64,000 nucleotides of DNA from Psammoneis japonica (Eukaryota). The notes under the pieces are model-generated. The model was not told the origin of the DNA and searched no databases. It saw nothing but the letters and a program-made list of their open reading frames with translations. The translations under genes and the position numbers were made by a program. Below, in pieces: positions 1-58,511 of this stretch. The stretch covers positions 1 to 64,000 of the forward strand of contig QPGO01000132.1 of the NCBI GenBank assembly GCA_008632985.1. Direction: 5' to 3'. Positions within the stretch are counted from its first letter, which is position 1. Each line of letters begins with the position of its first letter.

Positions 1-1527
1 GGACCTCCACAGAATCCACACATTTTTACACCAAAGCTGTTGTCTTCTGCAATTTGTGCAAAAACAGACTTGACTGTTGTCTGACCAGGTGCATTGTTGC
101 AGACATGTTTTCTGAAATGTGCCTGATCAGATGACAGTCAATCTCATCATTTTTTGCAAAGACACTTTTCAATGTCAGCTGCCCACCCTCAGCCTCTGTG
201 TGTGTTTCCATGTGCCCTCTCATGCAGAGATGTTGCCCTTCTCAGAGAGTGTTTCCCCTGGTCTTGCCAGCCCATTTTGGCCACCTCTGCTGATGGTGCA
301 ACCTTGTTGTGGCATGATGAGCAACACTCTCCAGCAGCAGAAAGAAACTGGCACATGCATGCCTTGTGGCTCACAAGCCAGCTGACTTGTCTTGCAATTT
401 TCTGCCAGCTCAATGCAGTTTCTGTGCAGGCTTCAGTGCAATTCTGCATGCTGCTGAAATGTCCTCCAATGGCCACACAGTTAAATCTCAGAGCTGCTCC
501 TCTTGCTCATGTCCACCCACATTCCTCAACAATCTTTTCTCTCTCTGTTGGCTTGTCAAGTCCCCTTTGCTCTGCTGAGCAGTGAAAGCACTGCATCCAT
601 TGTGTGGCACACACGAGTGTGAAAATGAGTCATCCTTCAACATCATTTGGCAGGCATTCATTTTGTGGGTGCATTGGCGACACTTGTGCAACAGCTCTGG
701 CATTGTTTCTGCATGAGATTGAGGCTTTTTTCTGGCAGCCAACTCATGACATCATCAAGCACCCCTGTTTCTCTCACCCAGCTGCCAGCCCTGGACAACC
801 CATCCCTTCCTTGCTGGCATGTCTCAAGAGCTCCCTGCTTCGAGTGGCATTCTTTCTGCTGCTGTCACACTGCTTGGAGGTGTGAAGTTGGGCCTCTTTT
901 TGACAAGTGCAAGTCTGTGCCTGGTTTGCTTGGCAACCATGTTGCTGTCTCATTTGGTTGAGCAAGATTGGAAACGCCTGATGAGAGGAACCCACTTCGC
1001 AAAAAACATTGCAACAGGATGATTCAGTTCCTCTTGCGCGCGCCATTGACAACCAAACAAAGAGGATGAATTGCAAACCTTCACACCCACATAAAGTCAT
1101 TTTAACAAACATGTTCAATTCTGAACATCGATTGCTCTTTCGAGCTGCCCCCATGCCAACGCCTTCTTGTGTTTCTGAATGACAGACTAAAACTTTGACT
1201 TCTGCCCAGCCAAGTTCTGCCTTTCATTGATGTTCAAAAAATGCAGAAGACAGAAAACCACAGTTAGTTGTGTTTGTTCGTTTGCTGTGAGGTGACCTCA
1301 TGGAATCTACAGCAGCACACATGCAACTCGCAACGACTTCTTGCAAATGAAATTAAAAAGGGCAGTGTCACCAGGGAGAGGGACTTTTGCCGAGGACGGC
1401 AAAATGGTCCGGTGGTCGACACCTGACACCGAAAATGGACACTGGTGAGTGTGACCTCCTGCCAACAACAGATTTGCCTGGCCGCACCCTGGGTGACATC
1501 TCTAGATGCGCTCATTCATGTTCAACC

Positions 1528-2555
1528 ATGGATGAAGAGTCTGATCACGAAAGCATTGAGTCGTCGGCAGCGACTGTCGACGATGTCAAAGAGGGTGCGA
1601 ACTCTAAGAAGTTGGTTGTGCCAAGGACATTAGAGCCCAACGTTTGTGGGCAGATCCATCCCGTGGAGAGCCCCGAGTTGATCGCTGCAGCGCTCCCAGA
1701 GTTTGACAACGAGCTGCGGTTTGTTGAAACCAAACAGAAAGATGCTCTGCTTCAGGCCGAGAGAAAATGTCCTCAACTCCTGACAAAAGAATTAAAGCTC
1801 ATGTTCCTTTGTGCTGAAGTCTTTGACGTTGATGTGAGTCACCCTTCACAGACTTCACAGTGATTTTATGATCGTTGCATCTTCATTTGTTCCTGGTTTC
1901 TGTCTTTCTTCATGCGCAGCGTGCTGCAAAGCGTCACATGCGGCACTGGTCAAAGCGCTTGGACGTTTTTGGTCCTCTGAAGGCTTTCCAACCGCTCACA
2001 TTGCAGGGAGCTCTTTCAGATGACATTGACATCATTTGACCAGGATTTGTCCAACACTGCTTGACCAAAGATGCTTCTGGTTGTCCGCACGCAATGCTGA
2101 ATCCTGCAAAACTCGACCGAAACAAGTGCACTGTAGAGGGCATGGCGCGAGTGTGCTGGCATTTCTTGCATGTGATGAATGAATCCGAAATGGGGCAAAA
2201 GCAAGGGTTGGTCACATTGTTCTGCCTGGATGATCTTGGTGTGAAGCATGTGGATTGCAAATTAATCGGGGGAGTGATCCCTGGCATCCTCGGCATCACG
2301 CCGAACAGATGCAGTGCGATTCACGTTTTTAGACCTCCACCCTTTGTGCAACTGGTGATTCCTTTTCTGCACATGTTTTTGAATGAAAGGATGAAAAAGA
2401 GAGTTGTTTTTCACATTGACTCCAAGCAAAAGATCGCCAACTTGTTAGAGAGAGAATGTGGTTTGCCATTTGACTGCTTGCCAAAAGAACTCGGCGGCAA
2501 GGTGAGACTGTGTGTCGACAGTTGGATGGTTCAGAGACAGGCCGAAGGGAAGTGA
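1528..2555 (+). pseudogene. CRAL-TRIO (Sec14-like) lipid-binding protein, hypermutated paralog of 5727-6990
   Basis: Colinear with the intact gene (HPVESPELIA, AERKCPQLLTK, HVFRPPP, LPKELGG). Same intron position (1834-1919). In-frame TGA near 2037 where the paralog has Arg. Paralog Tyr codons read Cys or His. Confidence 0.9.
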
Positions 2556-2800
2556 ATTAAAAAACATGTGGGCAAATGATGCAGTTTAATTTGTTGTTCT
2601 TAATGGTTGCACTTTAGAACGCCAACTTGTCAGAGGGAGAATGTGGTTTGCCATTTGACTGCTTGCCAAAAGAACTCGGCGGCAAGTTGAGACTGTGCGT
2701 TGATGGTTGGATGGTTCAGACACAGGCCAAAGGGAAGTGAGTTAGAAAATTTGTTGGGAAAGGATGCAGTTTACTTTGCAGTTCTTAACAGTTGCACTTT
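2435..2800 (+). repeat. Tandem duplication of ~181 bp (2435-2615 and 2620-2800) covering the 3' end of the CRAL-TRIO pseudogene
   Basis: cgccaacttgt...gttgcacttt occurs twice with high identity. Confidence 0.9.
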
Positions 2801-5726
2801 CCATCACACTCTCTCTAAAGGCATGAGTTGACAGACATTTGACTGAGTGCTGACTTCGCGAACCAATGTTTTGTCAGTGGCACACTCTTCGAACTGCCCA
2901 GCCAACAACATGCTGCTGAGCCAGCCATTGCTGCAGCCCCATGGAGCCTGGCATTTGAATGACGTGTCCTTTTGCGTGCTTTTGGTGGGATTCACACTGG
3001 CAACAGACAGCCTTCATTTCCCTGCCTCAAGCCAGTGTGTGGTGCTGCACTTTTGAGGAGATTTTGTTCACAACCTGAAGCATTGCAGTCCAATTGTGAT
3101 CTTCTGTTCTCTGCTGGAAAACTTTCTCTTCTTGATTTTTCCATTTTCTAACTTTGTTTTCAGTTGGTGTCAATGACTCTGCCACACCCATGTGCAGCTG
3201 GGGAGAAATGTCCATGATGCAGTCCTGAGCTGCAGCTCATGTTATGACCAGCAAACATCTGTGGTGCACGACTGCAGCTGACAAGTTTTCTGTGGCTGAA
3301 CAACTTCAATCCAAGACCCTAAATCTCAAATCAAACATTTGAGTTCAAAATCCAGAACCCAAAACAGAGCTTGCTGCTTTAAGAGAGCTTGCGCCAAGGC
3401 TCACAAATTGGAGAGAGTGCTGAGAGCACTGCAAAATGCAAGAAACACATGCTCACAAGTGAGCCTCCTGGGAATCCCAAAAATGGCAGCACCAGGTGCG
3501 ACAAACAAGGTCACCACATGTGCCAAAAAGGAATGCCAAGGTTTGCTTGTGACTGGCCCCATGCTCAGTGCACACAACCACATGTCTGTGGCAGCATTGC
3601 AAGCTCACTTTTCACCCAGCTGATGCAACAACTTGCCAACAATGAGTTGGACCTGAGCCGCCCTCAAAAACAGCCTCACTTTTGGTTGCATCCAGAGGCC
3701 AGTTTTTTTGTGCTGGTGCTCATTCACACCATCACAATGCTGCTGCAGTTTTCATTGAATGTTGGCCAACCATGAATCATGTTCTCTTTCTTTTCATTTT
3801 TGCCATCAGCTGGGTGTGCCAGAAACCCAGCTTGCTGTGGGTTGATGGAAAGTGCAGAGCTGGCACAAACCACAGGATGCTGCAACCTGGCGCACAATGG
3901 CACGTTTCTAAAGTTTTCCTCTGAAATGTGGATCTTTGCTTGGGAACCATTTCTCAAGCACATTTGTTGAGCAATGTCAAAGGTCTTACACAGAGCTCTG
4001 CTGCTGCAGTGGTGGGTGCATGCGAGCAGTGGTGGCATGGACAACAACAATTTGGGGGCACCTTGTCTGCAAAGCCCCGGCATTGTCATTGGCTCCAGCT
4101 GCTTGACTTTGATGGCATCTTCCCAGGGTTGTCACCAGAGAGGATGAGAGATGGTGCAGAAGCCCTCACATGCCAATTTTGGGTTGTGCTCTCACACTGA
4201 CTGGTGCGCAAGACCCCACTGCCTCTGTTTTCACAGCAGCAGGAAAGGCGCAGTTTTGCCAAGAGGAGATTGACAAGGATGTGTGCAGCATTCTTCACTG
4301 CAACAAAGCACTGGCCCACGCAATTTGCCAAAACAAACATTTGCATCTGAGACAGTGATGCACATGGCATCTCTTGCATTTTCTTGGCTTGCCAACTCTG
4401 GGATCAAGGAAGCATGCAAGCCGGCCATCTCCCGCCCACTTGCGCTCACAAGGAGAACAAGGTGCTTTTCCTCTTTGATTTGCACCATTTTTTGCAGATG
4501 TGCCACGTGAAATTCCTGCTCAATCTTCAAAGATCAGGCACTTGAGCAACTTGTCTCGCAGCACCGATGACTGGGCTCTGCCGCAGCACAACCATCGCAT
4601 TGTTTTGCACCACGAACATGAGTGCACAAACAAGGGCACACCAAATTTTGCTCACACTGCTCCCCAGATGAGTGCTGCTTGAATTTTGCCCAGCAATGTG
4701 TGTTCAGGCAACAAAGTGAGCCACGGCTCTTGAGCCAGCTCTCGCTGTCTGTGTGGCTGCTGCGGCTTGTACAGCCAAAGTCTCCTGTCATTGATTTTGC
4801 TTTGGCTGGCTCTGGCAGTGTTGAAGAACATGAACCATCAATCGCTGACCATGTTGGGTGCAATTGAGGCACACTTGCTGGGTGTTGCAATGTGCGGCAA
4901 TCACTCCAACAATCTCCATGATTTGGTGATGCGTGCACCTCGAAAGGCAGCCTGCCCAGCCGGCTGACTTTGTGCCAAATTTTGAGAAAGAAAAGAGCTC
5001 ACCAAACTGTTGTGACAAACACGCACCTGTGGACGTCCAAGGCAGAAACGAGAAAACTGGGTTGGACTGAAAATCACAACCAAGCTTTGAAATGATGAGT
5101 GTTGGCAGCTGCCAAAGCTTTTTCGTCACGTTCTGTTCGCGGCGCGCGGTGCATTCGAAAATTTGATAATGCCCTGGGCCACCATCACACTCTCCTCTCC
5201 ACCACAACCACACATTCAACAAATGTTGAAAAGTGAGCGCGAGTTCCGCGAATCCCGTAAGGTTTATTCCCGCCAAAATTTTTTGATATTTGATTTATCT
5301 TTATTGTTTGTGCGTTAATATATTAATCTTCAGAGGTAGCACTATAGTGACGTTTATCAAAGTTAATTTAGCTGAAAATGTATATGAAATCCGTTGTAAG
5401 CAACAAATTTCTAACAGGTATCATGCGATTTTACATTCAAATTTCATATGTCACACATGAAAACTCAAATTTGATTCACAATCAATGATACCGACTTTAT
5501 GATAAATATTAGAGTGCAAAGTATTGGATAATTTTCGTTAACAAACTTGTATCAGAAATGAGAGTTTACTCATGTACGTTTCATAAGATTGGATAAACGG
5601 CGTTTACGTGCATGTGAAATTTCGCAAAAAATCTCGCAAAAACAAACAACACAAACGACGTGTTCTCGTCATACACAGTGTTGCATGAACGAGAACGCGG
5701 GTAGTTCCCACTTTTAGAACCCCACC

Positions 5727-6990
5727 ATGCCTCCCAACAAACCTGAAAGAACGTTAAAGAGAGCAGCTTCACTTGGAAGTGGAGTTGTATCCGATGATGG
5801 TAAAACAATAGAGTGGTCATGGACTGCAGAAGAAGGAAGCTCGGGAGTCACCAAGCAGAACGATGAGCCACTAGTAAACAACAACATACTGCTCTTCCCT
5901 CCAACACAAGATTTCCCCCTCCGCGTCCTGAGTGATGTTTCTTATCTTAATGATTCGTCAGTTTCTAGTCAGAATGACATGTCTTCCATCACAGATTCGG
6001 ATCGAGACAGCTCCATCGACGAAGGCAAGCCCTACATTGAGTCTCCTAGGAGTGCCAAATTGGTGGTACCGAGGTGCAGAAAGAATGACGTTTATGGGCA
6101 AAGCCATCCTTTGGAGAGTCCCGAGTTGATCGCTACAGCGCAGGACGAGTTTGAGAAAACGTTGCGTTTTGTCAGGCGGGAGAGAAGTGCCTATGCTCTT
6201 CGTCAGGCAGAGAAGAACTGTCCCGAACTGCTCACCAAAAAGTTCAAGCTCTTGTTCCTTCGTTCCGAGCGTTTTAACATTGATGTAAGTCACGAGCCCA
6301 ATCCTGGTGTTGACTTTGTTAGATCGTGGCTCACTCCTTGCTTTCTCTCTTTCTAACGAATAGCGTGCTGTAAAGCGCTATCTCACGTACTGGGACAGGC
6401 GCTTGGACATCTTCGGTCCCAAGAAGGCGTACCAACCGCTCACGTTGCAGGGAGCTCTTTCAGAAGACATTGACACTATAAGACTGGGATTCGTCCGAAT
6501 CTGTTTCGATGCCGACCTTTCGGGACGACCGTACTTTTTGTTGGATCCTTCAAAACTGGATCGAAAGAGCTACACCGCCGAGAGCATGTCGCGAGTGTGC
6601 TGGTACTTCTTGCACGTAGCGAACGAATCGGAAGCGGCCCAGAAGCGAGGTGTCATGTTATTGTGGTACCTGGAAGAATTCCGCATGAAGCATTTGGATC
6701 ACAAATTTGCCAAAATGGTTCTCCCGTCTATTCAAAGTGCCATTCCAATTCGGCTGAGTGCCGTGCACGTTTTTCGACCTCCGCCCGTGGTGAGAGTCAT
6801 CATTCCCTTTTTATACCTTTTTGTGATTGAAAGGATCAAAAAGCGAATTTTGTTTCACTTCGGATCCCAAGACGCAGTCGCCAAGTTAGCGGTGAAGAAG
6901 TACGGACTGGCTTTGCCGAAGGAACTCGGTGGCAAGCAGTGTCTTTGTATCGATCGTTGGGTGGAACAGCGACTAGCGGAAGGCAAGTAA
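5727..6990 (+). CDS. CRAL-TRIO (Sec14-like) domain protein, 2 exons (5727-6284, 6364-6990)
   Basis: GT-AG intron 6285-6363 joins the frames. Motifs FLRSERFNID-RAVKRYLTYWDRR, PIRLSAVHVFRPP, LPKELGG. Confidence 0.85.
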
Positions 6991-7479: not shown

Positions 7480-9290
7480 GAGTCACATTGCAATGATGTT
7501 TTTAGATGGAGCTTTCTGACTGAACCCCGCTTCATTTGTTTCTTTCTTCTGACTTTCCTTTCTTCTTTGATGACTTGCCTTTGATGCAGCAAATCAAAAA
7601 GGAGAGGGTGTTGTTGCTGGGGCTGGATGATCTGTTTGTCCTTCACACAGCTTGTGTGCAGACAAGATGATGGATGCCAGCTCTGTTGGGGCGTAAAACA
7701 CGATGTGGGGTGAGCTGGTCCAGGTTTTTTCTTGGGCTCAATGTGCTTCCTTTAGTGAGGAGACTCATTTTGAAACAACTGGGATGCTGTGCCCTTTGTT
7801 CTTGTCTGCCCTGCACTGACAAATGGCAGCATGCTCAGCATCACTTGTGGCAAACACAGCAGCCGGCTGCTCCTGCATCAATGACATTTGCTTGAAGTCT
7901 GCCCCTCATTGCTCATGTCTGTTTTAAAGTCATGGCACCAATGCAGCTGGGCTGCTGGTGTCTCTCCCATGCTTTCTTGTGTGCCAGGTAGAAAAAGCAT
8001 GTGGCTGCTTTGACGTGCACCTTCAGGCTGTGGTGCAAGAGTGCAGCTCCATGCAAATGGAGTCTTGCCCAATCAAAAAAAGACTTTTTGGCAATTTTTT
8101 TGTCATTTCTGAGTTTCCAGCTTTGGGTGCACTGGCCTGCACAGCAGCAAAAACAAGAGAACCAGTGTGCAGGAAATGGGCGCAGCAGTCAGAAAGCCTT
8201 GGCACAGCAAGCAACAGGTTTTCTTTTTGTTTTGTCAGGTGGAGCAGCAGCATGAAACAACAGGGCAACGTGCATGGCAAAACATGCCCAAAGTGTGGTC
8301 CATGGAATGAGCCAGCACTTGCGTGACTGCGTCAATTGTTTGGAAAAAGGCCAAAGAAGTGGCTGGTCACAAAAGGAGAGCTGGCATGCTGAAAGATGGC
8401 AAGACTTTGTCAGAGTAAATGGGCCAGTGAAGGGGGTGCTTGCAAGCTTCAAAACTGGCAGAAAAATGAGCTTTTGACTGCGACGGGACCAAGCGGGGTG
8501 CTTGATGGAACAACACCCTTTTTTTCTCAAAGCTGATGCATGAAGCAATTTGTGAAACAGGGGTGAAATTCATGATGCTGCTGCAATTGCCGACATGCTG
8601 CATCACACAAGCTCTCCTCCTTGCACTGCTCTCGACATGCTTGGCTGCAGCTGCCGCACCTCTTGTTGGCACCACACAAGAGTGGTTGTTTTGTGATCTT
8701 TGGGGTTCAGAGTGACAGCACAAGCCCCATGGTGAGGAGGGGGGAGTGAAAAGCTTGCAAAGCTGGTCAATGAGAAACACGAGCATGTGATGGTGTGCTC
8801 CACTGTCAACTTGAAGGAGGGGCAGCTCTGGTCGATTTTTTGAATGTGCAGGTTGAAGCCATGGCTGACAAGGTTGGAACTTTTGTGTGTGCCAAGTTCA
8901 ACATTGCCAAGGAGGATAATCTCTCAGAAACAAAGGCATGGCATTGTGTTGTGAAAAAGCCGGCACACCATCTCTGCTGGCCGCCAAAGCTCCCAGAGCA
9001 GAGAAGTGCTTTGTGTGTTGCTGCCGCGCCGCTCCTTCACACAAACAACAGAGAGTTTCTGTGCCAAGGCTTGCAACAACAACACAAGAACCAGTGTGCA
9101 GATGGGTGCTGTGTCTGTGCAAGTGATGTTGCTGTGCAGTTTTCTGCCACTCTCAAGCCAAGCTGGCGGGGCTGTTTGCAGCACCCTCTCGATTTTTTTT
9201 TCTTTTGGAGTGCATGCAAGCTTGGGGCCTCTGCAGCTGCACTCCACAACACAGCCACACCCTCTGGGACAGCCTTTCCAAACAGATAAT
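7480..9290. other. TpA/CpG-depleted domain, degenerate repeat of unknown family
   Basis: Near absence of TA, TG/CA excess, no recognisable protein. Confidence 0.75.
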
Positions 9291-9624
9291 AAATGAGTGA
9301 GACCCTCGTCTGGCTCTCATGTTAGAGATGAAAGCACGATGGTCGAGGCTTTCTCACTGAAGTTCGTGCCAGAAACTTCAAGCGACAGCGGGGGTTGCTC
9401 TGTTTCGAATTTTCTTCAGTCACGATTTGTCACGATTCGCAACCTCCTGTCTCCTGTCGCTCACCATCACTTTCACTCTCTTGACTGTTGCCTGTTGCCT
9501 GTTGCCATTTTTGTCAGACGCTCAGGCCTGCACAACGCACAGTACCACCAACAAAGTGTCCTCTCTATAAAGTCAAGCTCTACTGGATGGCTGAAAGCTC
9601 GAAGAGAACAAAATCCTAGAAACT

Positions 9625-20827: not shown

Positions 20828-21239
20828 GGTGGATCTCCCACAAACAAAAGACAAGAAGAAGTGAGAATATCCAAAGCAGAAAAAAAATGAAAATGCCGAT
20901 GAAAGGATTTTGCTTCCGACGTCGATGCGCGCATTTTTGTGTGTTGTTGGTGGCGCGGCTGCAATTGCAGCGAGAAAGACTTAGAATTAAAGATTCCTTG
21001 AAATCGCAAGCGATCATAACAAACTTGTGTGAAGAAAGGAATCAAGAATCACTTGCCTCATCTCAGTTGCCTGTTTGTGCGAGAAAGTAAGACTCAAACT
21101 TCCGCCACCTTTTTCGGTACAAAGTTCCGTACATTTCTACATGAGAGAAGAACAAGCTATGCGGTTTAGGCTTTTGCTCTTCAATGCACGAAAGAGTGAC
21201 CTACCGACCTAACCTCGCGGACGGCGGACCGACACATGA

Positions 21240-22780
21240 TCTTTGATTGGCAGCCAGCATGCTTGTGTTCACACAATGGTGAAAATGTTGGTTAGAATTC
21301 GAGTGAACCAGGCTCCCCCTCCATCAATTGTTTGTTCTCTGCTCTCATCACACTTTTTTGTTTCACACAGATGTGGACATGAGTTTGTGCAAAGCAACAA
21401 CAGCGCGTGCTTCTCCGGAAAAGACGCTGTGCCAGAGCTGCGCAGCTGGCAGCAAGTGGCTTTGCTCGCACACCTTGCTCACATCTTGTGTGAGAGTTAA
21501 AAGAGCCTCTCTTCTTGGCTTTGTGCCAAGTGGTGATTGGAAGAGTGGTTGGCAGCTCTGTCACAGAAGCCAGGCTGCTCTGGCTGCACAGAAGGGTGGG
21601 CATTTCTTGGGAAAATCGTGTGAGCTCGTTTGGGCCCCAGAGCTTTCTGCCAAAAAAAAAAGAGGAGGGGAAAAAGAGCAGCTGCAGCTCTTCATTTGAT
21701 CAACAAGAGCTCATCACACTGAGCACAAGAAGCCCTTGTTCAACCCTTCAGCTGCCGGACTTGAGCAAATCTCTGCAGGTGGAGATTTGCTCGCTTTGCA
21801 AGCAAATCAAATGAAATGTTCTCAGATGTGAACAATGAACAATTTGTGCATGATTTTGTTTTGGAACACATGCACTCATTAAAAATCTGGGGGGAGGGGC
21901 ATTTTTCTTGCGATTTAGAAAGTTCAATGTCGACTTTCGACACCTTTTTTTTTGCACACTTGATCTGTGTGTGGAGAGGCAGGAACCAAATCTCACCTGT
22001 TGACAATGAAATTTGTGATGAGCCACTGTCACAACAGAGCAGCAAATGCCACACCCTTGGAGCAAATCTCCAAAATCAAGAATGCCATCACTTGTTGCAA
22101 GCAATCACAGCAGCAAATGGGTTGGCACATGATTGAAACTTTGGCGCTGTTGTTTCTTCTGTCTCAGCGGGGAATGGTGCACCTTGCTCAACAAGCTGGA
22201 GATGGACAACATTTGGAGAAAGATCACCAAGGGGCAGGTTGTCAATGCCTTCACTGCATCATGCATGCTTCAATTGTTTCACTTCATCCATGGCAGGGTC
22301 CCAGCCTTGGTGACAGGGGCTGCTTCTTGGTGTCTCGGGATGTGTTGGTGTTTGGTTGAGTGCATGTGGCTCCAATGAATGGTGTGCAAATTCCATTTTT
22401 AACTCATGAGATGTGAGCTCTGGATCTGGTCAATGCTTTCTGGACACTTGTCAAGCAGTCCTTTGTGCTTTGTCAACACAGGAAATGGAAGGGACGATGC
22501 AAATGAGGCCATGCCGGCCAACCTCCTCAATGGCATTAATCTGGGTTGTGTTGACATTTTCAATGCTGGGATGATGGATGCAGGAGAAGATGAGCAGTGT
22601 GTGTTGTGGGTCAGCAAAAACACAAGGACACAGTGCAAAGCCTTGATTGACAATGACTTGATTGAATCCATGAAAGTGCACAGCACCCTCTGTCTGCATG
22701 CGCCACTCAACCGAAGATGAGCCCATTGCCTTTGAAAACATCCCAAATTTGACTGCCAATGCCAATTTGGACCTCTGTGT
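21240..22780. other. TpA-depleted domain, degenerate sequence of unknown origin
   Basis: TA nearly absent, TG/CA excess. TA resumes at ~22780. Confidence 0.75.
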
Positions 22781-26893: not shown

Positions 26894-27589
26894 CAATGTT
26901 TCTAAAAATATCAGCGGAGGAAACAAAGGAAGACGAGGCTCCGGATACAAAGCACAGTTCCTTCTTACTGTAGACTAGAGAGTATATTTTACTTTGCATG
27001 TCGTTGGATGATTCCGATGATACATCATGCAAATAATACGATCGGCTCGATCGGGCGCCGGGCGCCTCGGGAGTTTTTAGAAAATTTAATACCCTATTCA
27101 ATGATGCATGCTGTAAAAAAATTTAGTATAACGATTTGTGGGGAGGAGGTCGCGCATCGCGACCAACCGCACGACTCATGCGCGAGCAAAAAGCATCATC
27201 TTGCCCACAAGGTCGCAATGGTCACCACTGTAGAGAAGCAGCATGATTTTGCCAAGTGGTGGATCATTGCTGTCTAACTGCCAAATGGGCAGAAGAAAGG
27301 AGCATACACACGCATGTGATCAGAGGAGCTTGGTTGGCAGTGAACAGGAGGCTCAGCGAGCAAGTGTGCTGTCCTGGAAATGTGCATGAAGCCGGTGCTC
27401 CCAGCTTGTGCGCTGCATGTCTGTTTCAACCTCAATTGACTGGTTGAGACCCCTTCATTGCACAGCCTAGCTTCATCAACCTTGCCAGTCACTGCTGCAT
27501 CTTTGACAACAAAATCAGGAGCTGTGAGAGAGAAAGTCTGCAAAAAGACGTCGAGTCTGTCCAGCGTTCACCAACCCCCCCCCCCCCCC

Positions 27590-30500
27590 AATGCACAATT
27601 TGACAGACTCTTTCAGCACAAATTCCAAATTTGGTGTGCAAGATGATTCTTCAGCGGGTGTCACAGCAACAACAGAGGGACAACAACAATGGACACTGGA
27701 GCAGTTGTTGCCGTTGCGCCGTGTCATGAACTGGCCTTGGAGTCTGGTGGAGGAGGTGACTGTGCAGCTGATCTTCAGCAACGGTCTCCCTCCGAGCGGC
27801 AATGAGGATTTGTTTGAGCAACTCTGTGTTTCAGCATTGTTTCCATTCATCTTGGGTGTCCCATCAAATCAGGTGCAACTGCATTTGGTGGATGAGAACC
27901 GGGTTGGAGATCCAGAAGAAGACTGTGGGGGGGCACATTCAACAAAAAGAGTTGAGGAGTTGAAAAGTCATGAAGATGAAAGTGAAGCTGTCTCGCCTGC
28001 TGGTTGCCATGACTGTTTCATGGAGATTTGTGGGTGTGCTGCAAGAGGGCAAGAAGGTCTCCCTGAGTGCAGCTTCTGCACATTTTCTGGCCATGGTCAT
28101 GGGACAGGGCAGATGGACAAATGTCATGTCAAATGCGGAGCAAAAGGCCACAAGTTGCGCTTTGTTCATTTGGGGGCAAAGGCGACAGTTCTCATGATCC
28201 TTGACATTTGCGGCAATCTGCACGCGGTTGCCTGCATGAGTGACAGGGTTCCTCCAGGTGATGCAATGAGAAGATGGAAGAAGACCATCAGAGTGCACGA
28301 CATCGTAACAATGTCTGCATGCGTGACAAAATTACATTGCTGTGTTACAAAATTTACTTGTCTGCACATGACGGTTTTTGTCATTTGGTCAATTGTCAAT
28401 CTCCTGCTGTTCTTCATGTTTGAACACAGATGCTTTTTAATTTTTATGCTCTGCCTTTTTCACAACAACTGACGATCTTTAACGACAAGCCAAACACTGC
28501 AATTGCATGCAATGAAATTTTCATCATGCAAAGTGTGCACCAATTGTTTGATCAACAACTGTGCTCCAATTGGCCCATTCGTCCACATCGTCCTCTTCAT
28601 TCCATGTGTCTTGTCCACTCTCTTGCAAGAATTTCAAATGTGCCGCTGCCGCATTGGCCTGACCACAGCGCCGACTTTCAGCAGGCGATTGTGGCTGCCA
28701 GGGAACATTTCATGGCACAGGATGACTGAATGGACTGTGCAAGTGGACACTGCATAGAATCCATGAGGAAGCAATTGCTCTGAAACTGCGCACATCTGAT
28801 GCATCGAGAGTTTCCTGTCGTGTCGGTGGTTGGGAAAGCCTTCCGATCTGGAAGAAGCTTGTCTTGGAGTTTCAGAAGAAGACATCAGAACGAAAGCAAC
28901 AGAAGGTGCTCGTGCCGCACTGCTTCACGTGTGCCACAATGACTTTGCCAATTCTGAAAGGATCAAATTCATCATGTTTGCAAGAAAGAGTCAGGAAATC
29001 ACTGTGAGTGAATGACAGATTGATGTGCATGTCCCATTTTAGAAACAAATCTGACCAACACTTCCTTCTGTCCTGTGTGGCCCAAACAAACAGGGCCTTT
29101 TCTTGCGCTTCTGCTGCTCCTGGACATTCTTCATAAACCAAAACATTGTCCCCAATTGCTTCGATGGGGAGAACACGTAACTTGGGTGAGTGCTGAGTCT
29201 TCTCAGGTGTTGAAAGCCAGTTGTTTTGTTTGTGATCAAGCTGCCAGTGACCAACCAAGTCTGTGTGCTGATGCCGTTGCCTCACAGTTCTCTGGTCAGC
29301 TTGACAAGCAGTTGGATGGACCACTGCAAAAATCGATCCTGTGTCTTCCTGTTGAAGAAACATGGCAAACGGGAGGGAAACTGTTGATCGCCCTTTCGTG
29401 CGCCAAAGGTCACACAGGCAAAGTCATGCCATCCCTCCCGTTTGCATTGCAAAACTCTGTCTTACAAGTCAGGTGTGCATTTTCACTGTCTTCACCAACA
29501 CAATCCTCTCACTTTTCTGACATGAAGTTCAGTGACACAGGATGAACTTGGCAACGAGCATGCAAGCTGTTCCACTCAAACGTCACAGCGCCAATCCCTC
29601 GGTTGCAGGTGAGAGTGAGTGCACTTCCTCCCAGCGTGTGATTGTCCGTCCTGACTCTTGATGATTCCTTTTTCCCAGTTGGCAAAATCCAACTGTCAGC
29701 TGAAATTGCGGCATTGAGCCTCATTTGGTCCTCCATGCGTGACACAACCTGCTTCAGAAAACTGTCGAGGTCATGTTGTTGTGCGGCAGATGACAGCAGC
29801 TTGAAAAAGTCTTTCAAGAGACATTCCCCCAACCCTGCGTCAAAGTTCATCGCATGTCGGCAACAACAAAGAAACACTGGGAGATGGAGTGTTTCATAAA
29901 GCTTTTGAAGCTTCCGCCCGCATCCTTCTGTTCGCAGGACGAATTGCACTGTCCGGTCAATGAGGAGACGGATTTTCTTGTTTATTTTCTGAATGGATGA
30001 ACTGGGAGTTGCACTTGTGATGGGTGGATTGCCCAGCCTGCACCATGCGTGGAAGACAAGAAGGTCCTCGAGCAATTGAATGAAATTCCGGACGCTGCAG
30101 TTGAGTCTTTTTCCCTTGTGTTTTTTCTTTTTTTGGTTGTCGTCACCATCCTCAGCCTCACTCTCCTCTTTCTCATCCTCATTTTCGTCCCAGTCACCCT
30201 CTTCGGACTCCTCTGACCTTTCATCGTCAGAGTCCAAGTGCTCACTGGGTTGGCAGCAACTCTCAAAGTTCACTTTGGGTGTCTTGCGATTCTCTGGAAC
30301 AATGGGTTCGTCTGCGTCCTCATCAAGGAAGCATGACTCACATGCGTTTCGTCCCTCACTGGTCAACAGGAGAAGGTAGAAAACAAAAGCCATTCCAGCC
30401 CAGTGGTGAGAGTTGAGGAAGGTGAGCGACGTTGCTCCTCCTTTGAAGTTTGTTCGCAAAAAGGATGCTTTGCAAGTTGACCGGTGATTGCTGAAAATCC

Positions 30501-33500
30501 TTTCCACTGTGCTGTCCACCTCACTTGCGACCACAGGTGTCATGCTGTCTACAAATGAATTGACTGCCCTTTTCAAGGTGCCATTTTCAAAGAGATGCAT
30601 CATGTCGCTTGCTGTCGCAAGGGTGATGCCGCATGGTTGTGCACCAAAGTCTGCCTCAAAAAGACAGTTGGCAGGTGCGTTGTGTTGCTTGAGGCAATGC
30701 AAGATGCCCAACCAGTGCTTCCTTTCTTGGTCTGATCTGTTGTTGTCGTTGGCCTTAGTTTGCACTTGGTGGAGATCCAGTCCTCGGACAAACTTGCATT
30801 CAATCCATGGGTCATCCAGTTTGTTGAAGCCAGTGAGGCAAAAACGACAGCAACGTTGACGACAGTTGTGACCTCCGCATCGTCCGATGAGACAGTCGCC
30901 ACTTTTTGCATCTCCTGTGATCAGAACGATCAGCGGGATTGCGTGGAGGTGTCGCATCTCATCCCCTCGTCGCACACATGTTTTCATGCCTCCTTTTCTC
31001 ATGACTTCCAAAAGTGGCTCCAAAACAACACGCAAGCAAGTGTGGCAGTCTCTCAATGAGCGTCCCTTCTCCGCCTTGCGATTGTTTGAGAGATTCTTTG
31101 CCGCAGATGACGACATCTTTTCCAAATCCGGGAGACAACCAATTGGTTTCCAGACACTCTTGTCTGACCATTTGTCGAAGGCAACATGCACAGAGGTCAT
31201 GATCACTGGTTCTCCGCAATGTGATCCCATCCCTTGTGTCCCACCAGTCTTGTTGAGGCAAATGACATTGCACTCGAGAAATTGTTTCTCCGGGTCAGTT
31301 GTCCATTCTTCGTAACTGCGCCTGTGCCACTCACCCGCCAAAAGGCACTTGTCATCCAGTCCCTTCGCTTTGAACTTCCCAAAAGGATTGTCTGGATCGG
31401 CCACATTCTCTCTGCTGCACCACAGGTGAGGATCGAGTGAAAACTGTTCCCAAACCTTTGTGAAATCCCATCTTGGCACTGACACTCGTTTTGGCAAACC
31501 GGTTTTGAAATTTTTGGTTTCTAGAGTGACAGGAATAGACTCGCTGGGTGGAAGAGGGAAATGATTGGTCAAGGCATGCATCAACTCTTTTCTCCTTGGC
31601 AGAACTGCACCAAGCTCAATGTTGCTGTCACCAGTGTGCCTCTCAATGAAATCAACAATGCAATTGCACAATTCCAGGGGAGCACCACGTGTGTCCATGA
31701 TCTTCTTGCACAACTCTGCGCAAGCTCCGTCAAGATTTGTCAAAGAGGGAGCAGAAGCCAAGGCCTCTTCTGCAGGAGCATCACACCTGATCCCCAAACG
31801 TTGATCCTCATCATGAATGTCCTCTTCCTCCTCCATTGTCATGTCCAACACTGCAGCAAAGGATTGACCACCGCCAACATCCAAATCGTTCATTGCCAAA
31901 AGTTCAACTCCATGCATGCTGTGGTTTGATGAAATGGAGGACATGTCGTCCATTCCGTGTGGTGCGTCATCCTGGGAGGGGAACAAGGGGCTGCTGCTCA
32001 GATCACTCATTGAAGATCTTGGGAATCTGCTGTGAGTGGATCGCCTTGGATGGGATTCGTCATCATCAGAGGACGAAGAGGAAGAGCTGCCACTTTCTTT
32101 GGGTGGCCCCTCTGTTGTGGCAGGAATGTCACTTTGATCTGGGACCAGATCTTGGGTTTGCAACTCTTGGGCAACTGAGTGACACGTCGGCGAGCATCTC
32201 CAATGGCAGGCTGTTCGCAAAAAACTTTGGCCACAACCTGGACAGAGAAGAGGGTTTCCGTCCATTGTCAATCAGACAACATTGACAGGGCCTTCATCAA
32301 GACTCACACTCGTCGTCCTTGTCTTGTGGATGAGAAGGGAAAAGAAGAACAACATGCAAAAAGTTGGTGGGAAACTGGCAAACATTACATTGCACTCCAG
32401 ATTTGGATGATTCTCATGGGTGTGACATGTCTGCATTTTGATTTTTTATCTGGCACTCACAATGAACATTGTGCTTTTTATTTGCTGTCAAAATGTGGGA
32501 TGTTGTCTCCGTTGAAACGCAATGACAGCCACATCAAAAAGCAAGCTGGACTGTTCGTTGTCATGTGCAAATGTGTTTTCAAATTTCAGTGTTGCTGACA
32601 ACAATTTGTGCAATGTTTTGGAGAAAAACAGAGTGCCTGGCTGTCTCAACACGACCCAAACAACGGTTGCACTGTGGAACAGTGCCACTCCTCTCATTGT
32701 TTCCGTGAAAAGATCAAGATGTCGCATCCAGCACCACCGGCAAAGAAGAGAAAGAAAAATGAGACTGTCAAGCCAATGAGCCCAAGACTTCAGGCAGTGT
32801 TGAAGAGAACAGGTGCGCAGGCAGCGCATGGTGCATTGAAATCAGAAGTGGAGAAGGTGGCTGGAAATGATCTGTTTCCACAGGTGAAGTTTCTCAGTCC
32901 ATCAGAATTGGCAAGCAATGGGAGCGTCTCAATGTTTGTCAAGAAACAGATTGCTGGTGGCAACATGGACACTTCAAACTGGTCAGGAACTTGGGAGGAA
33001 TGGGCAAAAAAGGCGGTAAAAAGGCAAATTGACAATCGCAGAAACACGGTGTGTTCGGCTGTTGGGGTGGAGGCAATGGCCCGTAAGTCAAGTGACCAAT
33101 GTGTGTGACTCGAGAGTTGCACGTGTCTCACAAGAAGATGATGGTGATGCTTCATCTGTGCAGGCATTGTCGCTGAGGAAGAGGGAAAGGAAAAAGAAAA
33201 GAAACTCAAGGCGGCAGCCAGGAGGAAAAAGCAAGGCAGGAAAAAGTCAAGCTGTGACAAGAATGAAGAGAATGATGTCCCGTTTGTGCCGACATGGGAT
33301 CCGTTTGGCCTGGACACCATCACCGGCGGCAAACGAAGGAACAAGCAGGCACACAAGTGGTTCTGTGATCACATGCCACCTCAAACCACATGGAGCAGCG
33401 CTGTCAAAACTGGGAACGCACAGGTCTCACAGTTGTTTGCGGTCGGTGACGAAGCTTTGGCACTGTCAGCTGTGGAGAATTGTTGGCAGGTGTGGGCATG

Positions 33501-34010
33501 CAGGAACAAGGAGGAGGCGGTGGAAGAATTGGGTGAGGAAATGGAGCCCGAAGAAACAAGGCCTGCCCCTCGGCACATGAAGCCAAAGAAACAACGAGTG
33601 TCTTGGGGAGACAAAGGAATCAATTGGTTCGACGATTTGTGCAAAGAGGTGACAAAAGACAGAGACTCCAAGGAGGGCAAGGAGTTTGAAAAGTGGCACG
33701 CGGAGATCAAGAAAAGCGAGTGCGAGAAGTCCGGAGAAGCAAAAAAGAAGAAGAAAAAAGCACCAACTGGTGACACGGAGAAGGTGAAGGCAATGAACAG
33801 CCCAATGGTGGAGAGCAGCAGGGACGACAATGGCAACGACGATGAGCAGGAGGAAGGGGCAAAAGGCAAAACGGACGACGGAGGAGACGAGTCCGATGGA
33901 GACGAGTCCGATGATGATTGTTGGCTCAGTTTGAGAGAGTTGCAGCAAGAAAATGTGTGCACAGTTGACACAGCACTCGGTCATTGCACTGCAGACGTAA
34001 CAAGGGATTG
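27590..34010. mobile_element. Putative Plavaka/CMC(EnSpm)-like DNA transposon relic with transposase and accessory ORFs; termini not identified
   Basis: Transposase-like ORF on the minus strand, a divergent intron-containing ORF (32718-34011), and a convergent ORF relic (27591-29035). All are TA-depleted. Confidence 0.6.
29030..32271 (-). pseudogene. Plavaka/CMC-like transposase, hypermutated
   Basis: N-terminal CPGC...H...C finger. Motifs ITGDAKSGD...CRFC, DMMHLFENG, KLQKL(H>Y)ETLHLP, NFDAG.GE. Only ~3 Tyr in 920 aa. A TGA at 29509 truncates a frame whose likely C-terminus continues toward ~29030. Confidence 0.65.
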
Positions 34011-34011
34011 A
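32718..34011 (+). pseudogene. Transposon-associated accessory ORF (basic/acidic, NLS-like PAKKRKK), hypermutated
   Basis: GT-AG intron 33083-33163 joins two frames (AMA-R-IVAEEE). Motifs DEALAL..EN.W and W..KGINWF..LCKEV..DR. No Tyr. Confidence 0.5.
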
Positions 34012-37000
34012 CTTGGCCGATGAAATGATCACGCACTGGCATGTGGCAACAAGGTGGAGGCAGAAATGGTGATGTGGAGACAGTGAAAAATGGCACACAT
34101 GATTCTCAATGAGTCATTGCAACATTGGTGTGCCAAACTTGCAACCAGAGGTTGGCCTTTCATCACATGACAACAATTTTTTGCAACATTTTGACAAATT
34201 GTCATCATGCAAATCTGCACATTTTTAACATTTCGTGCACTCTGATGACCGTGGCATGTCAAAATGTTCCTTTTCCATTGGCCTGAGCAAAGAGCTCCGT
34301 CTCATGGTGCTGTCGGGTTGGATGGGTTGGTCAACATGATGTGGATTGTGCACATGAAGAGCACAAGCCTTGTGAAATCTTGGGGCTGCTGCTGAGCCAT
34401 CTGGTTTGCTTTCCCGTGGCAAATTGCATCCCAGCCGTGACAAAGGCCTGCAAGTGTGATGCCAATGAAGACCGTGACTTGGATGTGACATTTTGCAAGA
34501 AATTTCAGGGGTTGAATCCTTGGCGCTTTTGTGAGAATCCCGACAAGCATCTGCCATGCACTCACACAGGTTTGAGTCATCTGCAACAGCTTGTTGACAG
34601 TGGGACATGTTGCCTGTCAAGCAGGATGCATCAAAATGCACCCTCTGTCAGCAAGAGTGGGAGTGGTTCTCCACATGCAAGCTTGCTCTGACATTTGATG
34701 ATGGGGACAAGGTTGGTCACAGCATTGTCAAATTCATCATCAAATCAATTCTTCAATGGCACCAGAAGGATCCTGAGAGACGCTGTTGGAATCAAGCATT
34801 GGCACCCGGCTGCAGCAACAAAGGTTGCTCTGACTGTGAAGCCTGCAAAGCATGGCACATGTTGCTGGAAATGGCGGGAAAATTCCGCCCCCAGCTCATT
34901 CATTAATTTTGTTACATTGGCGAGCAACATGTGACCCGTTGTGTCAATGAAGACAACTCAAATGTAGATGTGGGCTGAAGGGTTTGGCCCTCTGTCATCC
35001 AGACCTTCTGAAGGTTGTTGAAAAAGTCGAGTGTTGGATTGCCACAGGCTTCAACAGAAAAAGAGGCAATTTTGTGAGTGCACAAACTCCTCCACACTCA
35101 GAGGACATCATTTTTGGTTTGTCCAGGTGTGAAACAATGTTGTCGAAGTGTGTGTGCACAATGTGCAGTGCATGATCAAAGTGGCGCAAGGTTCCACCTG
35201 CAGTGGAGAGCTGGAGCCAACCTGCAGAACACACATGTGGGCTGAAAAACAATGCTGCAAGTGCACCACAGAAGGACTCAACAAAACTGTGATCAGCATC
35301 CTTCCCTTGCAAACACAAACACATTGCTGGCAAGCTCAGGTGCTGATTTTGGCACCACTGGAAATGTGCCAGCCAACAGCAGCAGTCGCGGTGCCAGCTG
35401 CAGCATGGATTAGATGCAACAAAGAAAATTCTTTTCAAGAGGATCTCTGTCCAGAGAATCCTGGTGCACACTTTTGTCAGAAGCCAGTTTGAAGACAGAA
35501 CAATGAGCTCATTTTCTCAACCAGGGACATTGGGCAGTTTGTTGGTTTGACTGGAGAAAAAAAAACTCAGCAATGTGGCCAATGGACCCACTCAGATGAA
35601 AACTTGCTTGGCCAGCAAAGATGGCAAGTGCACTTCTCACTTCTGCCCCTTTGCCTCCAGCAGCAGCTGTGCTTGGCCAACTGCTGCCCATGTTGTGCTG
35701 GCTTTCAGCATTGACTTTTGCAGTTGCTTTCCTGTGCCAGTGCATGTTCATTTTGTGTTGGAAACAAAGCCAGCAAAATCAGCTGTGCACACAGCCATCC
35801 AACAGCAACACAACAGCTCTCACTCAGCAAAACATGCACATTCTTGCCAAATTCATTGCACACAATGGGGGGGAGCACTGATGGGGTTTGTTCTGAGGAC
35901 GGAGGTTTGAGGCAGAGATGTGGTCATTGAAACACATCCATCCACTGAGTTGTTTGATGGCTGTGCCCCACAAAATTCACCTGCTCACTGCTTGTCAGTT
36001 GTTGATCCTCCAAGAATGCTCCAAGACCAAAATGACACCAGCCTGCCCACCAACCATGTCACTTCAATGAGTGAGCACTCATTTCCGCCCACATGCTTGC
36101 ACTTCTAAGTTTCTGAAAGAGTTGATGCTCAGTGCACAATGCATGGTGCTGCATGGGCCACACAGCTGGCCCCACCTTTTGCTTTCAATCACTGCATTGT
36201 CGCCTCATTCTTTCTGCTCCAAGCAGCAACATTTTGTGCAAAAGTTGTGTTTCACAAGCCAGGATCATCCACAGGTGTGGGCCCCAACAAGAAGAAATCC
36301 ATGACATGCCTCTCAAAAAGTTGGGTCAAAAGTTCTGAGAAATGCAGCTCTTGAACTGGTTCATGAAGACTCAAAGGATGAGTGCACTTTGCTGCTTTAA
36401 CAAGCTTTTCTAGATAAAATGATGATGCAGTGGATCTGACTTTGCCAAAAGGGGCAAAGAAATTCTGTTGCATGCACAAAACCTTTCCTCCAGCTCCCCA
36501 TGGTCAACCAGACAATCAAGCTCAAAATGCAACTGAAGAAGATGTGTGAAGCAGTCTGTTGAGTGCTTGTTGGGTTGAAGAAGTCAGATCTGCCAACAAC
36601 AACCACCAACTTCTGCAGTTGAGACAAACAAGCTGCAAGAAGCTTGGGAAGCATCTTGCTGATGAGCAGGTGGAGCAAGAACTTCTTGCTTGTGGTGCTG
36701 ACAAGGACAAGAAGGATCCAACAAATCACATTGTGAGCATCAACCAGAGCCACCCAGATCCAAAGCCCCATCACCAGGAATGGACTGGTGGCTCATCAAA
36801 GAAGAAAGTGGCCATTGTCAGTTTCCCAGACTGGAGATGTTTTCCACATTTTGAAATGCTGGACATTGGTTGGGTGGAGCTGAAGTTGCTGCAGAAGCAT
36901 GGCATGCCAATTGTGCCTCACAGATTTCATTGATGGCAGGATGTGCATCACAGATTGGATTGCTTTTGGGCAGTGGAACGTCAGTCTGTTCGCTCAAGTG

Positions 37001-38462
37001 AAGATCAATGTGTGCCAATGCCAACACCATCTTCTGGATCTGCGCTGCATCTTGAACTCCCAAGTGATGAGCAAGGTTGCTGCTCTGTCATCTCCTGTGC
37101 CAACTTGCCCAAAGGCTGTCCTCAGAAACTCAAAAGAAGCTCATCAGCCAAGTCCATTCTCAGATTTTCCATCACAGAGATGCTTGCTCGCCTTGCTCTT
37201 GGAGCCATCAATGCATGTTCTTGGTTGGGGCACACAGTTTTCACTTGACTCAAATTCAACAGGATGTGTTTTCCCCCTCACATTGCGTGCATGCAAGGAT
37301 TGTGTGGATGTGGGCAGAAACAACATTGATGCTCATGTTGCAACACCCAGGCTTAAAAGTTTGGGAGTGCACATGGCAGACCAAGTGACCAACTTGATGG
37401 GAAATGCTTGGTGTTGTGTCAGGCTGTGCCAACATTCCTCAATCCCAGCACGCAGCTGCATCTCTAGTTCTTCATGTTTGCATGGCATCCTTTTGATCAT
37501 GTGCCATGTTGATGTGATGAATGAGTTCAAAAAGTCTGGTGTGGTGGCAACAAAGCCACTGAAAACCTCAGCAAGAAAGACTTGAGTGCCAGCATCAAAG
37601 ATGCAAGGTTCCAAGATTTGTTGCCAGAGATGCTTCTTGGCAAGTGGCTGGACATCATCATCAAGAAAGATTTTGAAGTGCCCAAATCCTTGGCATTTTG
37701 GTCAAGTTGCCCCAGGTGGTTCAAATCTTTGAGCCACCACATTGTCAACCAGCAGACAGAGCTGTTGTTGGAAATAAAAAGCATGCTGCAGACAGTGTTG
37801 AAAGAGAGGGTGGAAGACTGGCAACGGCTGACACTGTCTTTGGAGGGCAAGGGTTCTGTGCAGGAAAACAAAAAGAGCCAGCTGCAGGAGCAAGACTTGT
37901 GCAGAGTCAAGACCAAGCTTGCAATTTAAAGATGCCAGAGTTGTCAAACAGGGTGGGAAGGCACCATCCATCTGAAGCATCTGTTGTCAACCCGCAGTTG
38001 CTCCTGGAGCCTGCACCTCAAAGATCTCCACCATCTGACTCAATCATGCCAGAAGCACTGGTGCACCACAGGGCTTGTGCAAAGTTTGTGCTGAGAACAA
38101 AAAGGCAACAAAGACAAACCAGTGCTGCATGCTCTGCAGGACTCAAAGAGAAACAGCTGTGCTGCTGGTGGGAGGACACCCAGGGACTGGAAGAGTGTGT
38201 GTCTGCAAAGCACATTGTGGAGAAATCAAACCTCAAATGTGTCTTGGAACTTGTTGAAAAAGTCACCACCAGCAATGAAAAGAAGATGCTGAGAATGTTG
38301 GTGGTGGGAACAATGGAGCTGGAGGCATGTGCGCCACAGCAGTGCCACTCAGAAATGCTGCATGACCCAAGAAATGTGTCTCCACAAAGAAGCAAGGCAA
38401 AGATCTAGAAGTTGAAAGGCAGAGAAAAAAAAACAGCAAATGCCAAGAGAGCCACGCACCAG

Positions 38463-42308: not shown

Positions 42309-42334
42309 CTCTCTCTCTCTCTCTCTCTCTCTCT
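42309..42334. repeat. (CT)n microsatellite
   Basis: About 13 CT units. Confidence 0.9.
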
Positions 42335-47127: not shown

Positions 47128-47142
47128 CTCCCCAGTTTGCTT

Positions 47143-58390: not shown

Positions 58391-58511
58391 CTAATCTCGC
58401 TCCGAGCAACACAACACACAACAAACGAAAAACTGCCGCCAGCGATGACAACAACCATCAGAAGAAAGTGAAGAGTTGATTGTTGTTTGATATAAGCAAG
58501 AGTTCATCACA

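What the first reader, a model, noticed from the sequence alone, without database searches (positions are those of the whole stretch)
1..5130. Surviving TA sites are biased to YTAR contexts (TTAA, CTAA, TTAG, CTAG)
Of the roughly 30 TA dinucleotides found by eye in this block, about three-quarters are pyrimidine-TA-purine (gttaaa, gactaa, tctaga, attaga, cttaat). The same bias is apparent in the other blocks. Inference: the mutator has a flanking-base preference, acting most on TAY/RTA, as an enzyme would. Bacterial TadA acts on UAC in tRNA, and its DNA-editing derivatives favour TA. The preference is not absolute: CTAA vs CTGA differs between the LTRs.
Basis: partly seen in the sequence, partly recalled or inferred. 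Interest (0 to 1): 0.7.

Follow-up and report, generated by a model that had tools for sequence, protein, structure and literature searches.

The report
Flank-biased TA hypermutation in diatom repeats
In this diatom genome, repeat-rich DNA has had most T-A steps rewritten to T-G or C-A, fastest when a C or T follows the A, which looks like the fingerprint of an unidentified DNA-editing defence against mobile DNA.

Summary
Confirmed. 23 of 32 TA sites in 1-5130 are YTAR (34% expected, p=1e-5). In a 380-kb genome sample, 42% is TA-depleted, and YTAR makes up 318 of 604 survivors there against 1459 of 8711 elsewhere. The genome is a diatom's. Copies of three repeat families show why: TA changes to TG or CA, by transition only and on both strands, about 10-40 times more often than at other adenines. 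At sites with one TAY and one TAR strand, the TAY strand is the one hit in 94 of 109. Relative rates by the base after A: C 3.9, T 2.8, G 1.6, A 1; positions +2 and -3 also matter. YTAR survives because both of its strands are slow. The process matches the TpA hypermutation reported in Bigelowiella natans (2026 preprint), whose main text gives no flanking context; ten searches found no diatom report. The enzyme is unknown: a DNA adenine deaminase is likeliest (about 0.5), but TadA itself is not supported. One candidate is a second ADAR-fold gene conserved across diatoms. Three metagenome retroelements carry the same signature. The scan noted this earlier on four other pieces of this genome.

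The parts
1..5257 (.). TA-depleted domain of the finding (TA o/e 0.095, CG o/e 0.38); 32 TA in 1-5130, 23 of them YTAR
1..161 (.). old dispersed repeat (copies 75-82% identical)
163..919 (.). old dispersed repeat of about 750 bp (copies mostly 65-75% identical); no Pfam family
1357..2555 (+). TA-depleted duplicate of a CRAL-TRIO gene, with an in-frame TGA at 2037-2039; 6 TA in the aligned span against 28 in its partner
2431..2800 (+). 185-bp tandem duplication of the gene's 3' end (88% identical)
5718..6990 (+). normal-composition CRAL-TRIO partner gene; a contig of run X2 skips its GT..AG intron 6285-6363
7504..9542 (.). TA-depleted domain (9 TA)
21211..22779 (.). TA-depleted domain (6 TA, all YTAR)
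27306..41041 (.). TA-depleted domain (54 TA, 26 YTAR, 0 RTAY)
28657..34200 (-). multi-copy element, probably a Plavaka-type DNA transposon (family B; 22 copies aligned)
   Evidence: Atlas feature hit 0.95: a lead; no Pfam hit
38463..38911 (.). 450-bp element with 112-bp terminal direct repeats, TRIM-like (label from recall; family C; 30 copies aligned)
41945..55041 (.). TA-depleted domain (66 TA, 31 YTAR)
46852..53935 (-). Copia LTR retrotransposon, 276-bp LTRs 92% identical; 19 copies compared
57706..58490 (.). short TA-depleted domain (2 TA)

Best explanation
SHOWN: in repeat-rich domains of this diatom genome, the adenine of 5'-TA-3' mutates to G in genomic DNA, on either strand, giving TG or CA. 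The rate depends on neighbours of the edited A: +1 C > T > G > A (about 3.9:2.8:1.6:1), +2 A protects, -3 A promotes and -3 T protects. A duplex TA offers two targets, so YTAR (TAR on both strands) decays slowest and RTAY fastest; that is the observed survivor bias. INFERRED: the agent is a host nucleic-acid adenine deaminase brought to silenced, CpG-methylated repeat chromatin. It converts A to hypoxanthine on transiently exposed DNA (R-loop or bubble), and replication fixes the change as G, destroying tyrosine codons of transposons. The enzyme is not identified. Candidates are ADAT2 (G000:C26) with a new cofactor, and a second ADAR-fold deaminase with no dsRNA-binding domain annotated (G000:C79).
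For: A>G per aligned site: TAC 0.41, TAT 0.28, TAG 0.18, TAA 0.13, against 0.002-0.015 at the 12 non-TA contexts; 0 transversions at TA beside 500 A>G cells (17 target copies). Paired test at mixed sites: 63 vs 11 (Copia), 25 vs 4 (family B), 6 vs 0 (family C), 5 ties. Joint model on 208 sites and 71 copies. Additive two-strand model fits ten tetramer classes (deviance 3.8, 6 df). No strand bias after context: odds 0.92, 1.27, 0.80, all intervals spanning 1. Direction is fixed by outside homologues: 13 of 16 conserved Tyr are Cys or His in the window's copy, while 116 of 119 homologues have none; Cys codons 143 vs His 58 over 19 copies. It acts after insertion: 125 of 175 LTR-pair differences in 12 copies are TA, CG or TG/CA type, 63 TA vs 26 CG. 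It also hits a host-gene duplicate. The same dinucleotide spectrum arises de novo in B. natans (bioRxiv 10.64898/2026.01.13.699255). A-deaminases in general favour U/T at -1 (PMC11156358, PMC8065034, passages).
Against: No biochemical evidence; sequence alone cannot say whether the A or its paired T is the lesion. The +1 preference is opposite to fungal Tad2/3 (A/G at +1), unlike ADAR (slight G at +1) (PMC11156358) and unlike amphioxus ADAT2 (GAA; PMC10354150). No link between predicted unpairing and editing (rho -0.08, p=0.24, 194 targets). Strand coordination is weak (0.52 vs 0.485, p=0.03), unlike a processive single-strand burst. Survivor counts rank T above C while alignments rank C above T. 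In family B, retention of YTAR was not higher than of mixed sites (p=0.77). Copies are related, so cells are not independent; rests on 27 bootstrap replicates. Methylation was not measured.
Confidence: 0.5

Rival explanations
1. A specialised error-prone polymerase, recruited by repair of T:G mismatches from 5mC deamination, inserts G opposite template T at TA (Pol eta-like).
For: CG and TA loss share domains and rise together across Copia copies (by eye). Editing is patchy over up to 500 bp. About five Y-family loci exist. AAY mutates more than AAR (52 of 437 vs 36 of 692 sites, p=6e-5).
Against: Pol eta gives A to C/G at WA motifs (PMC4686820, passages). Here AA is hit 0.002-0.012 vs TA 0.13-0.41, with no transversions at TA. 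TA differences outnumber CG differences in LTR pairs. Metagenome Copia loci L182, L183, L158 and L194 lost CG (o/e 0.02-0.16) but kept TA (0.58-0.72).
Confidence: 0.17
2. The lesion or the decisive step is on the thymine of R-T-A: a T modification that pairs with G, or a glycosylase that removes T opposite spontaneously damaged A in TpA.
For: Sequence-equivalent to the adenine model. Human TDG excises T opposite hypoxanthine, in a TpG context (PMC4041421, abstract). The hypoxanthine glycosylase family PF02245 gave no match in G000 (not proof of absence).
Against: The TDG precedent is TpG, not TpA. Spontaneous A damage is unlikely to give the 1000-fold rate seen in B. natans (inference). No glycosylase or thymine oxidase was searched for.
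Confidence: 0.15
3. Repeats carry a symmetric adenine mark (such as 6mA) at TpA, and the marked base is deaminated or miscopied; the flank bias is that of the writer.
For: TA is self-complementary, like CpG; both strands are hit equally.
Against: Eukaryotic 6mA is known at ApT in genes (recalled). PF05063 gave no match, but its control rang nowhere, so that search is uninformative.
Confidence: 0.1
4. RNA-level A-to-I editing of transposon transcripts, copied back by reverse transcriptase.
For: Two ADAR-fold genes exist.
Against: No strand bias; LTR pairs differ at TA; a probable DNA transposon and an intron-bearing gene duplicate are hit.
Confidence: 0.03
5. No rate bias: YTAR survives through local A/T-rich composition, stop-codon avoidance in the comparison DNA, selection, or new TA made from TG/CA.
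For: Normal segments are coding-rich and under-use YTAR (16% vs 27% expected), which inflates survival ratios.
Against: Within-block and local nulls are rejected. The paired test compares two strands of the same site. TG>TA is rare (0.001-0.008) and not higher before purines.
Confidence: 0.02

Closest known systems
TpA hypermutation of integrated NCLDV and virophage DNA in Bigelowiella natans (bioRxiv 10.64898/2026.01.13.699255; parts 1-3 of 5 read, term search of the main text, supplements not seen)
   Same: A:T>G:C transitions at TpA giving TpG/CpA, on both strands, in domains of foreign or mobile DNA; ADAT2 proposed, not shown.
   Different: Different eukaryotic supergroup. Here it is near saturation over about 42% of sampled DNA, on LTR, probable DNA-type and non-autonomous elements and a gene duplicate, and coupled with CpG loss. 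The preprint's main text has 0 hits for trinucleotide, flanking, context and diatom. Here it is inferred from copies; there it was measured in mutation-accumulation lines.
Repeat-induced point mutation (RIP) of ascomycetes (PMC2621366, abstract start in search listing)
   Same: Dinucleotide-specific transition hypermutation of repeated DNA.
   Different: RIP is C>T, mostly at CpA, and mutates both copies. Here it is A>G and destroys TA, and of the two CRAL-TRIO copies only one is hit.
E. coli TadA and TadA-derived ABE7.10 (PMC8065034, passages)
   Same: 5' T strongly preferred; TAC best.
   Different: Native TadA does not edit DNA (PMC10354150, passages). No +2 G advantage and no hairpin preference here.
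Fungal Tad2-Tad3-Ame1 mRNA editing (PMC11156358, passages) and amphioxus ADAT2/3 (PMC10354150, passages)
   Same: tRNA deaminases retargeted to other substrates; U at -1 in fungi; A-to-I on DNA in amphioxus.
   Different: The fungal enzyme edits RNA and favours A/G at +1; the amphioxus enzyme favours GAA and hairpin loops. Neither matches TAY.
Pol eta / non-canonical AID signature (PMC4686820, passages)
   Same: A:T mutations after T, tied to mismatch repair.
   Different: WA motif with A>C as well as A>G; here TA far exceeds AA and there are no transversions at TA.

Membership tests
B. natans-type TpA hypermutation | A:T>G:C transitions concentrated at TpA | tested here: met
B. natans-type TpA hypermutation | both strands (TpG and CpA products) | tested here: met
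B. natans-type TpA hypermutation | confined to domains of foreign or mobile DNA | tested here: met
   Window domains hold dispersed repeats while genes are normal. Exceptions: a gene duplicate is hit, and 3300-5130 matched only itself.
B. natans-type TpA hypermutation | de novo rate about 1000-fold above background, in only some lines | not testable with these tools
   Indirect only: 9 differences to run X1 in about 6.8 kb of depleted DNA vs 1 in 4.7 kb of normal DNA, p=0.04.
B. natans-type TpA hypermutation | same enzyme (homology of mechanism) | not testable with these tools
   enzyme unknown in both organisms
RIP | C:G>T:A transitions that create TpA | tested here: not met
   TG>TA 0.001-0.008 per site; TA o/e 0.06
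RIP | both copies of a duplication mutated | tested here: inconclusive
   Only one CRAL-TRIO copy is depleted, but the pair is about 78% identical by column, perhaps too diverged to count.
TadA/ADAT2-type DNA editing | T at -1, TAC best | tested here: met
TadA/ADAT2-type DNA editing | preference for hairpin-loop adenines | tested here: not met
   (42-nt windows, DNA parameters; a coarse test)
TadA/ADAT2-type DNA editing | inosine formed in DNA by the enzyme | not testable with these tools
   needs biochemistry
Pol eta signature | WA motif with A>C and A>G | tested here: not met
ADAR hyper-editing of retroelement RNA | one-strand bias, fixed before insertion | tested here: not met

The most novel reading that the evidence does not exclude
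Diatoms have a natural, chromatin- or RNA-guided DNA adenine editor with a T-A-Y motif that works as a genome defence, an A>G mirror of RIP. It has rewritten about 40% of this genome and is active in other diatom-like lineages. Its catalytic subunit may be the second ADAR-fold protein (G000:C79), which is conserved across centric and pennate diatoms; I put about 0.12 on that specific protein.
Probability: 0.42. Interest if true: 0.92.

Novelty: new variant of a known kind. Interest (0 to 1): 0.72.

Why it matters
Natural adenine editing of genomic DNA is barely known; adenine base editors had to be engineered from TadA. A repeat-targeted A>G process was first reported in 2026 in one rhizarian alga. 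Finding it near saturation in a diatom, with a measured sequence motif, widens its range to a second supergroup and gives a fingerprint against which candidate enzymes can be tested. In practice it distorts transposon annotation (Tyr to Cys/His hides domains), inflates LTR-based ages, and gives a simple screen (TA o/e plus YTAR share) for other genomes.

Tried and rejected
Pfam on six frames of 1-1352 and 2801-5259, stops read as X: one weak hit (E 0.055) in 12 translations. 3300-5130 matched only itself in G000. Hairpin dependence: none. Long strand-coordinated tracts: weak at most. TACG looked protected in survivor counts but was the most edited class in alignments (0.52, 40 targets); I put this down to young elements keeping both TA and CG (inference). 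An expanded TadA/APOBEC-like family: not seen with PF14437 and PF00383. Hits were a TadA-like gene with an N-terminal extension, ADAT2, dCMP deaminase on two contigs, two guanine-deaminase-like genes, RibD and one decayed copy (names are my reading of motifs and Pfam). ADAT3 was not identified. PF02245: no match; PF05063: uninformative. Atlas search on the C40 deaminase: no usable hit. Sequencing runs: no RNA holder listed; run X2 has no cover over the depleted gene copy, which is no evidence. Rows 46-215 were dropped as other repeat copies. The codon table printed codons reversed; one search is the corrected one. Seven of 19 LTR pairs were skipped for gaps or truncation. Literature searches found no diatom report; the library lacks most subscription papers.
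Full report
THE OBSERVATION. The window alternates between normal DNA (TA o/e 0.5-0.76, CG about 1.0) and domains nearly free of TA (o/e 0.04-0.10), with CG reduced and TG/CA raised. In 1-5130 there are 32 TA: 23 YTAR, 8 mixed, 1 RTAY. Base composition predicts 25% YTAR and a dinucleotide null 33.6% (p=1.1e-5); a local null averaged 10.2 and never reached 23 in 100,000 draws. Over the window, 91 of 170 depleted-domain TA are YTAR against 170 of 1066 in normal DNA, and CG survivors show no such bias. Small blocks are not significant alone. Domains were called by a two-state model on TA itself, which is circular for depletion but not for context.

THE GENOME. The window is G000:C132:1-64000, in a 91.4-Mb assembly. 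The named top relatives of its arginase are diatoms. The block holds two old dispersed repeats (1-161, 163-919), a CRAL-TRIO duplicate with an in-frame TGA (1357-2555) and unidentified DNA. Of 40 requested 10-kb stretches, 38 existed (round coordinates on large contigs, not random). Of these 380 kb, 160 kb (42%) is depleted: TA o/e 0.06, CG 0.41. YTAR is 318 of 604 survivors there against 1459 of 8711 in normal DNA. Survival falls from TTAA 0.63 to ATAT 0.011. A model in which each strand's A has a rate set by its 3' base fits the ten folded classes (deviance 3.8, 6 df); equal depletion does not (619, 9 df). The baseline is coding-rich, so these absolute values are approximate.

SURVIVORS REFLECT MUTATION RATES. 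I compared existing copies of three families: a Copia element (19 copies), a probable Plavaka-type DNA transposon (22 of 27 loci given to the script) and a 450-bp direct-repeat element (30). Where two reference copies agree, 17 other Copia copies show A>G at 0.41 (TAC), 0.28 (TAT), 0.18 (TAG) and 0.13 (TAA), against 0.002-0.015 at other adenines. There are no transversions at TA, and CpG>TpG runs at 0.03-0.055. The cleanest test is within a site: where one strand reads TAY and the other TAR, loss is mainly on the TAY strand at 63 vs 11, 25 vs 4 and 6 vs 0 sites, with 5 ties. A joint model on 208 sites gives +1 C 3.9 (3.2-5.4), T 2.8 (2.1-4.3), G 1.6 (1.3-2.2) relative to A; +2 non-A about 1.7; -2 G 0.65; -3 T 0.35, C 0.59, G 0.63 (27 bootstraps, related copies). 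Against a tidy picture: family B did not show higher YTAR retention than mixed sites (p=0.77), and survivor counts rank T above C. A weaker 3'-pyrimidine bias appears at AA too (52 of 437 vs 36 of 692).

DIRECTION, LEVEL AND TIMING. Of 16 Tyr columns conserved in 119 outside homologues, the window's copy has 8 Cys, 5 His, 2 Tyr and 1 Phe, while 105 of 109 conserved F, W, H, C, D, K and G columns are kept; 116 of the 119 homologues have no Cys or His at the Tyr columns. So TA is the older state. There is no strand bias after context. In 12 of 19 copies with an ungapped LTR pair, 125 of 175 differences are TA (63), CG (26) or TG/CA (36) type; without two copies shifted by indels it is 108 of 124. 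The process therefore acts on inserted DNA. It follows domain rather than sequence family: the CRAL-TRIO duplicate keeps 6 TA where its partner, 4.4 kb away, has 28. Editing is patchy within copies up to about 500 bp, with little strand coordination; shared ancestry may contribute to the patches. Contigs of run X1 differ from the window by 9 events in about 6.8 kb of depleted DNA (3 at TA, 4 at CG, 1 TG/CA, 1 other) and by 1 transversion in 4.7 kb of normal DNA (p=0.04). X1 may be the source sample, so this suggests recent activity but is not independent support.

BEYOND THIS GENOME. Of 54 metagenome loci with related Copia, three (L174, L171, L163; 61-65% amino-acid identity) have TA o/e 0.13-0.31, 12, 14 and 6 conserved Tyr changed to Cys or His, and 31 of 88 YTAR against 1502 of 9177 in the other 51 (p=1e-5; L163 alone p=0.09). 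Their hosts are unknown. Four other loci lost CG but not TA, so the two decays can be separated. Metagenome assembly collapses repeat copies and can hide the signature.

MECHANISM. Transition-only change of one base in a defined context points to base modification by an enzyme (inference). Adenine deamination is the simplest route; I give it 0.5. But natural eukaryotic retargeted enzymes prefer other +1 bases: A/G in fungi, slight G for ADAR (PMC11156358, passages), GAA in amphioxus (PMC10354150, passages). No hairpin preference was found. TadA-fold genes in G000 look like housekeeping enzymes. ADAT2 has the Asn that the B. natans preprint stresses (read), but from recall that residue is general in ADAT2. 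G000 has two ADAR/ADAT1-fold genes. C40 reads as ADAT1 (my reading). C79 has HAE and PCG motifs, matches human ADAR catalytic domains, and has orthologues in Skeletonema, Thalassiosira, Attheya, Seminavis, Nitzschia, Fistulifera and Pseudo-nitzschia with only PF02137 annotated; all 120 listed are closer to C79 than to C40. A 2017 review says only ADAT1 was known throughout protists (PMC5558901, passages). This makes C79 a lead, not a result. Rivals are an error-prone polymerase (contradicted by the TA/AA ratio and the lack of transversions; PMC4686820, passages), a thymine-side route (precedent in PMC4041421, abstract) and an adenine mark. Many C5 methyltransferase matches exist (27), consistent with CpG methylation, which was not measured.

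WHAT IS KNOWN. The closest case is TpA hypermutation in B. natans (bioRxiv 10.64898/2026.01.13.699255; parts 1-3 of 5 read). Its main text has no flanking-context analysis and no mention of diatoms; its supplements, which list the mutated sites, were not seen. Ten searches found no diatom report. This works like the B. natans process and meets its sequence-level criteria; shared enzymology is untested. It is not RIP. The scan noted the same process on four other pieces of this genome; those notes are not independent evidence.

VERDICT. New variant of a recently described kind; interest 0.72.

Noticed in passing
L141 (G000:C79:344558-345390): Second ADAR/ADAT1-fold deaminase gene with only the catalytic family annotated, conserved across diatoms and distinct from the ADAT1-like gene at G000:C40.
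   Followed up: partly
L174, L171, L163: Metagenome Copia relatives with low TA, Tyr to Cys/His changes and YTAR excess; L182, L183, L158 and L194 lost CG but not TA.
   Followed up: partly
L130-L132, L136 (G000:C301, C297): Several C5 DNA methyltransferase copies sit in TA-depleted, ORF-dense DNA (TA o/e 0.07-0.11), possibly an integrated foreign element being hypermutated.
   Followed up: no
L085:319-1791 (G000:C79): Deaminase domain fused to a 2OG-Fe(II) oxygenase.
   Followed up: no
L139:677-1138 (G000:C151): Decayed deaminase-like ORF with His/Cys where Tyr is expected (by eye).
   Followed up: no
window 46852-47127 and 53660-53935: Most LTR differences are TA, CG or TG/CA type, including 6 double TG/CA differences, so LTR dating is inflated.
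   Followed up: yes
window 1-161: Short dispersed repeat that matches many copies in both orientations over 60-141, so it is partly palindromic.
   Followed up: no
window 11601-12535 and 56212-56484: Coding tandem repeats in a Deltex-type RING protein and in a Pro/Thr-rich ORF.
   Followed up: no
G000 (whole genome): No match to the hypoxanthine DNA glycosylase family PF02245; not proof of absence.
   Followed up: no
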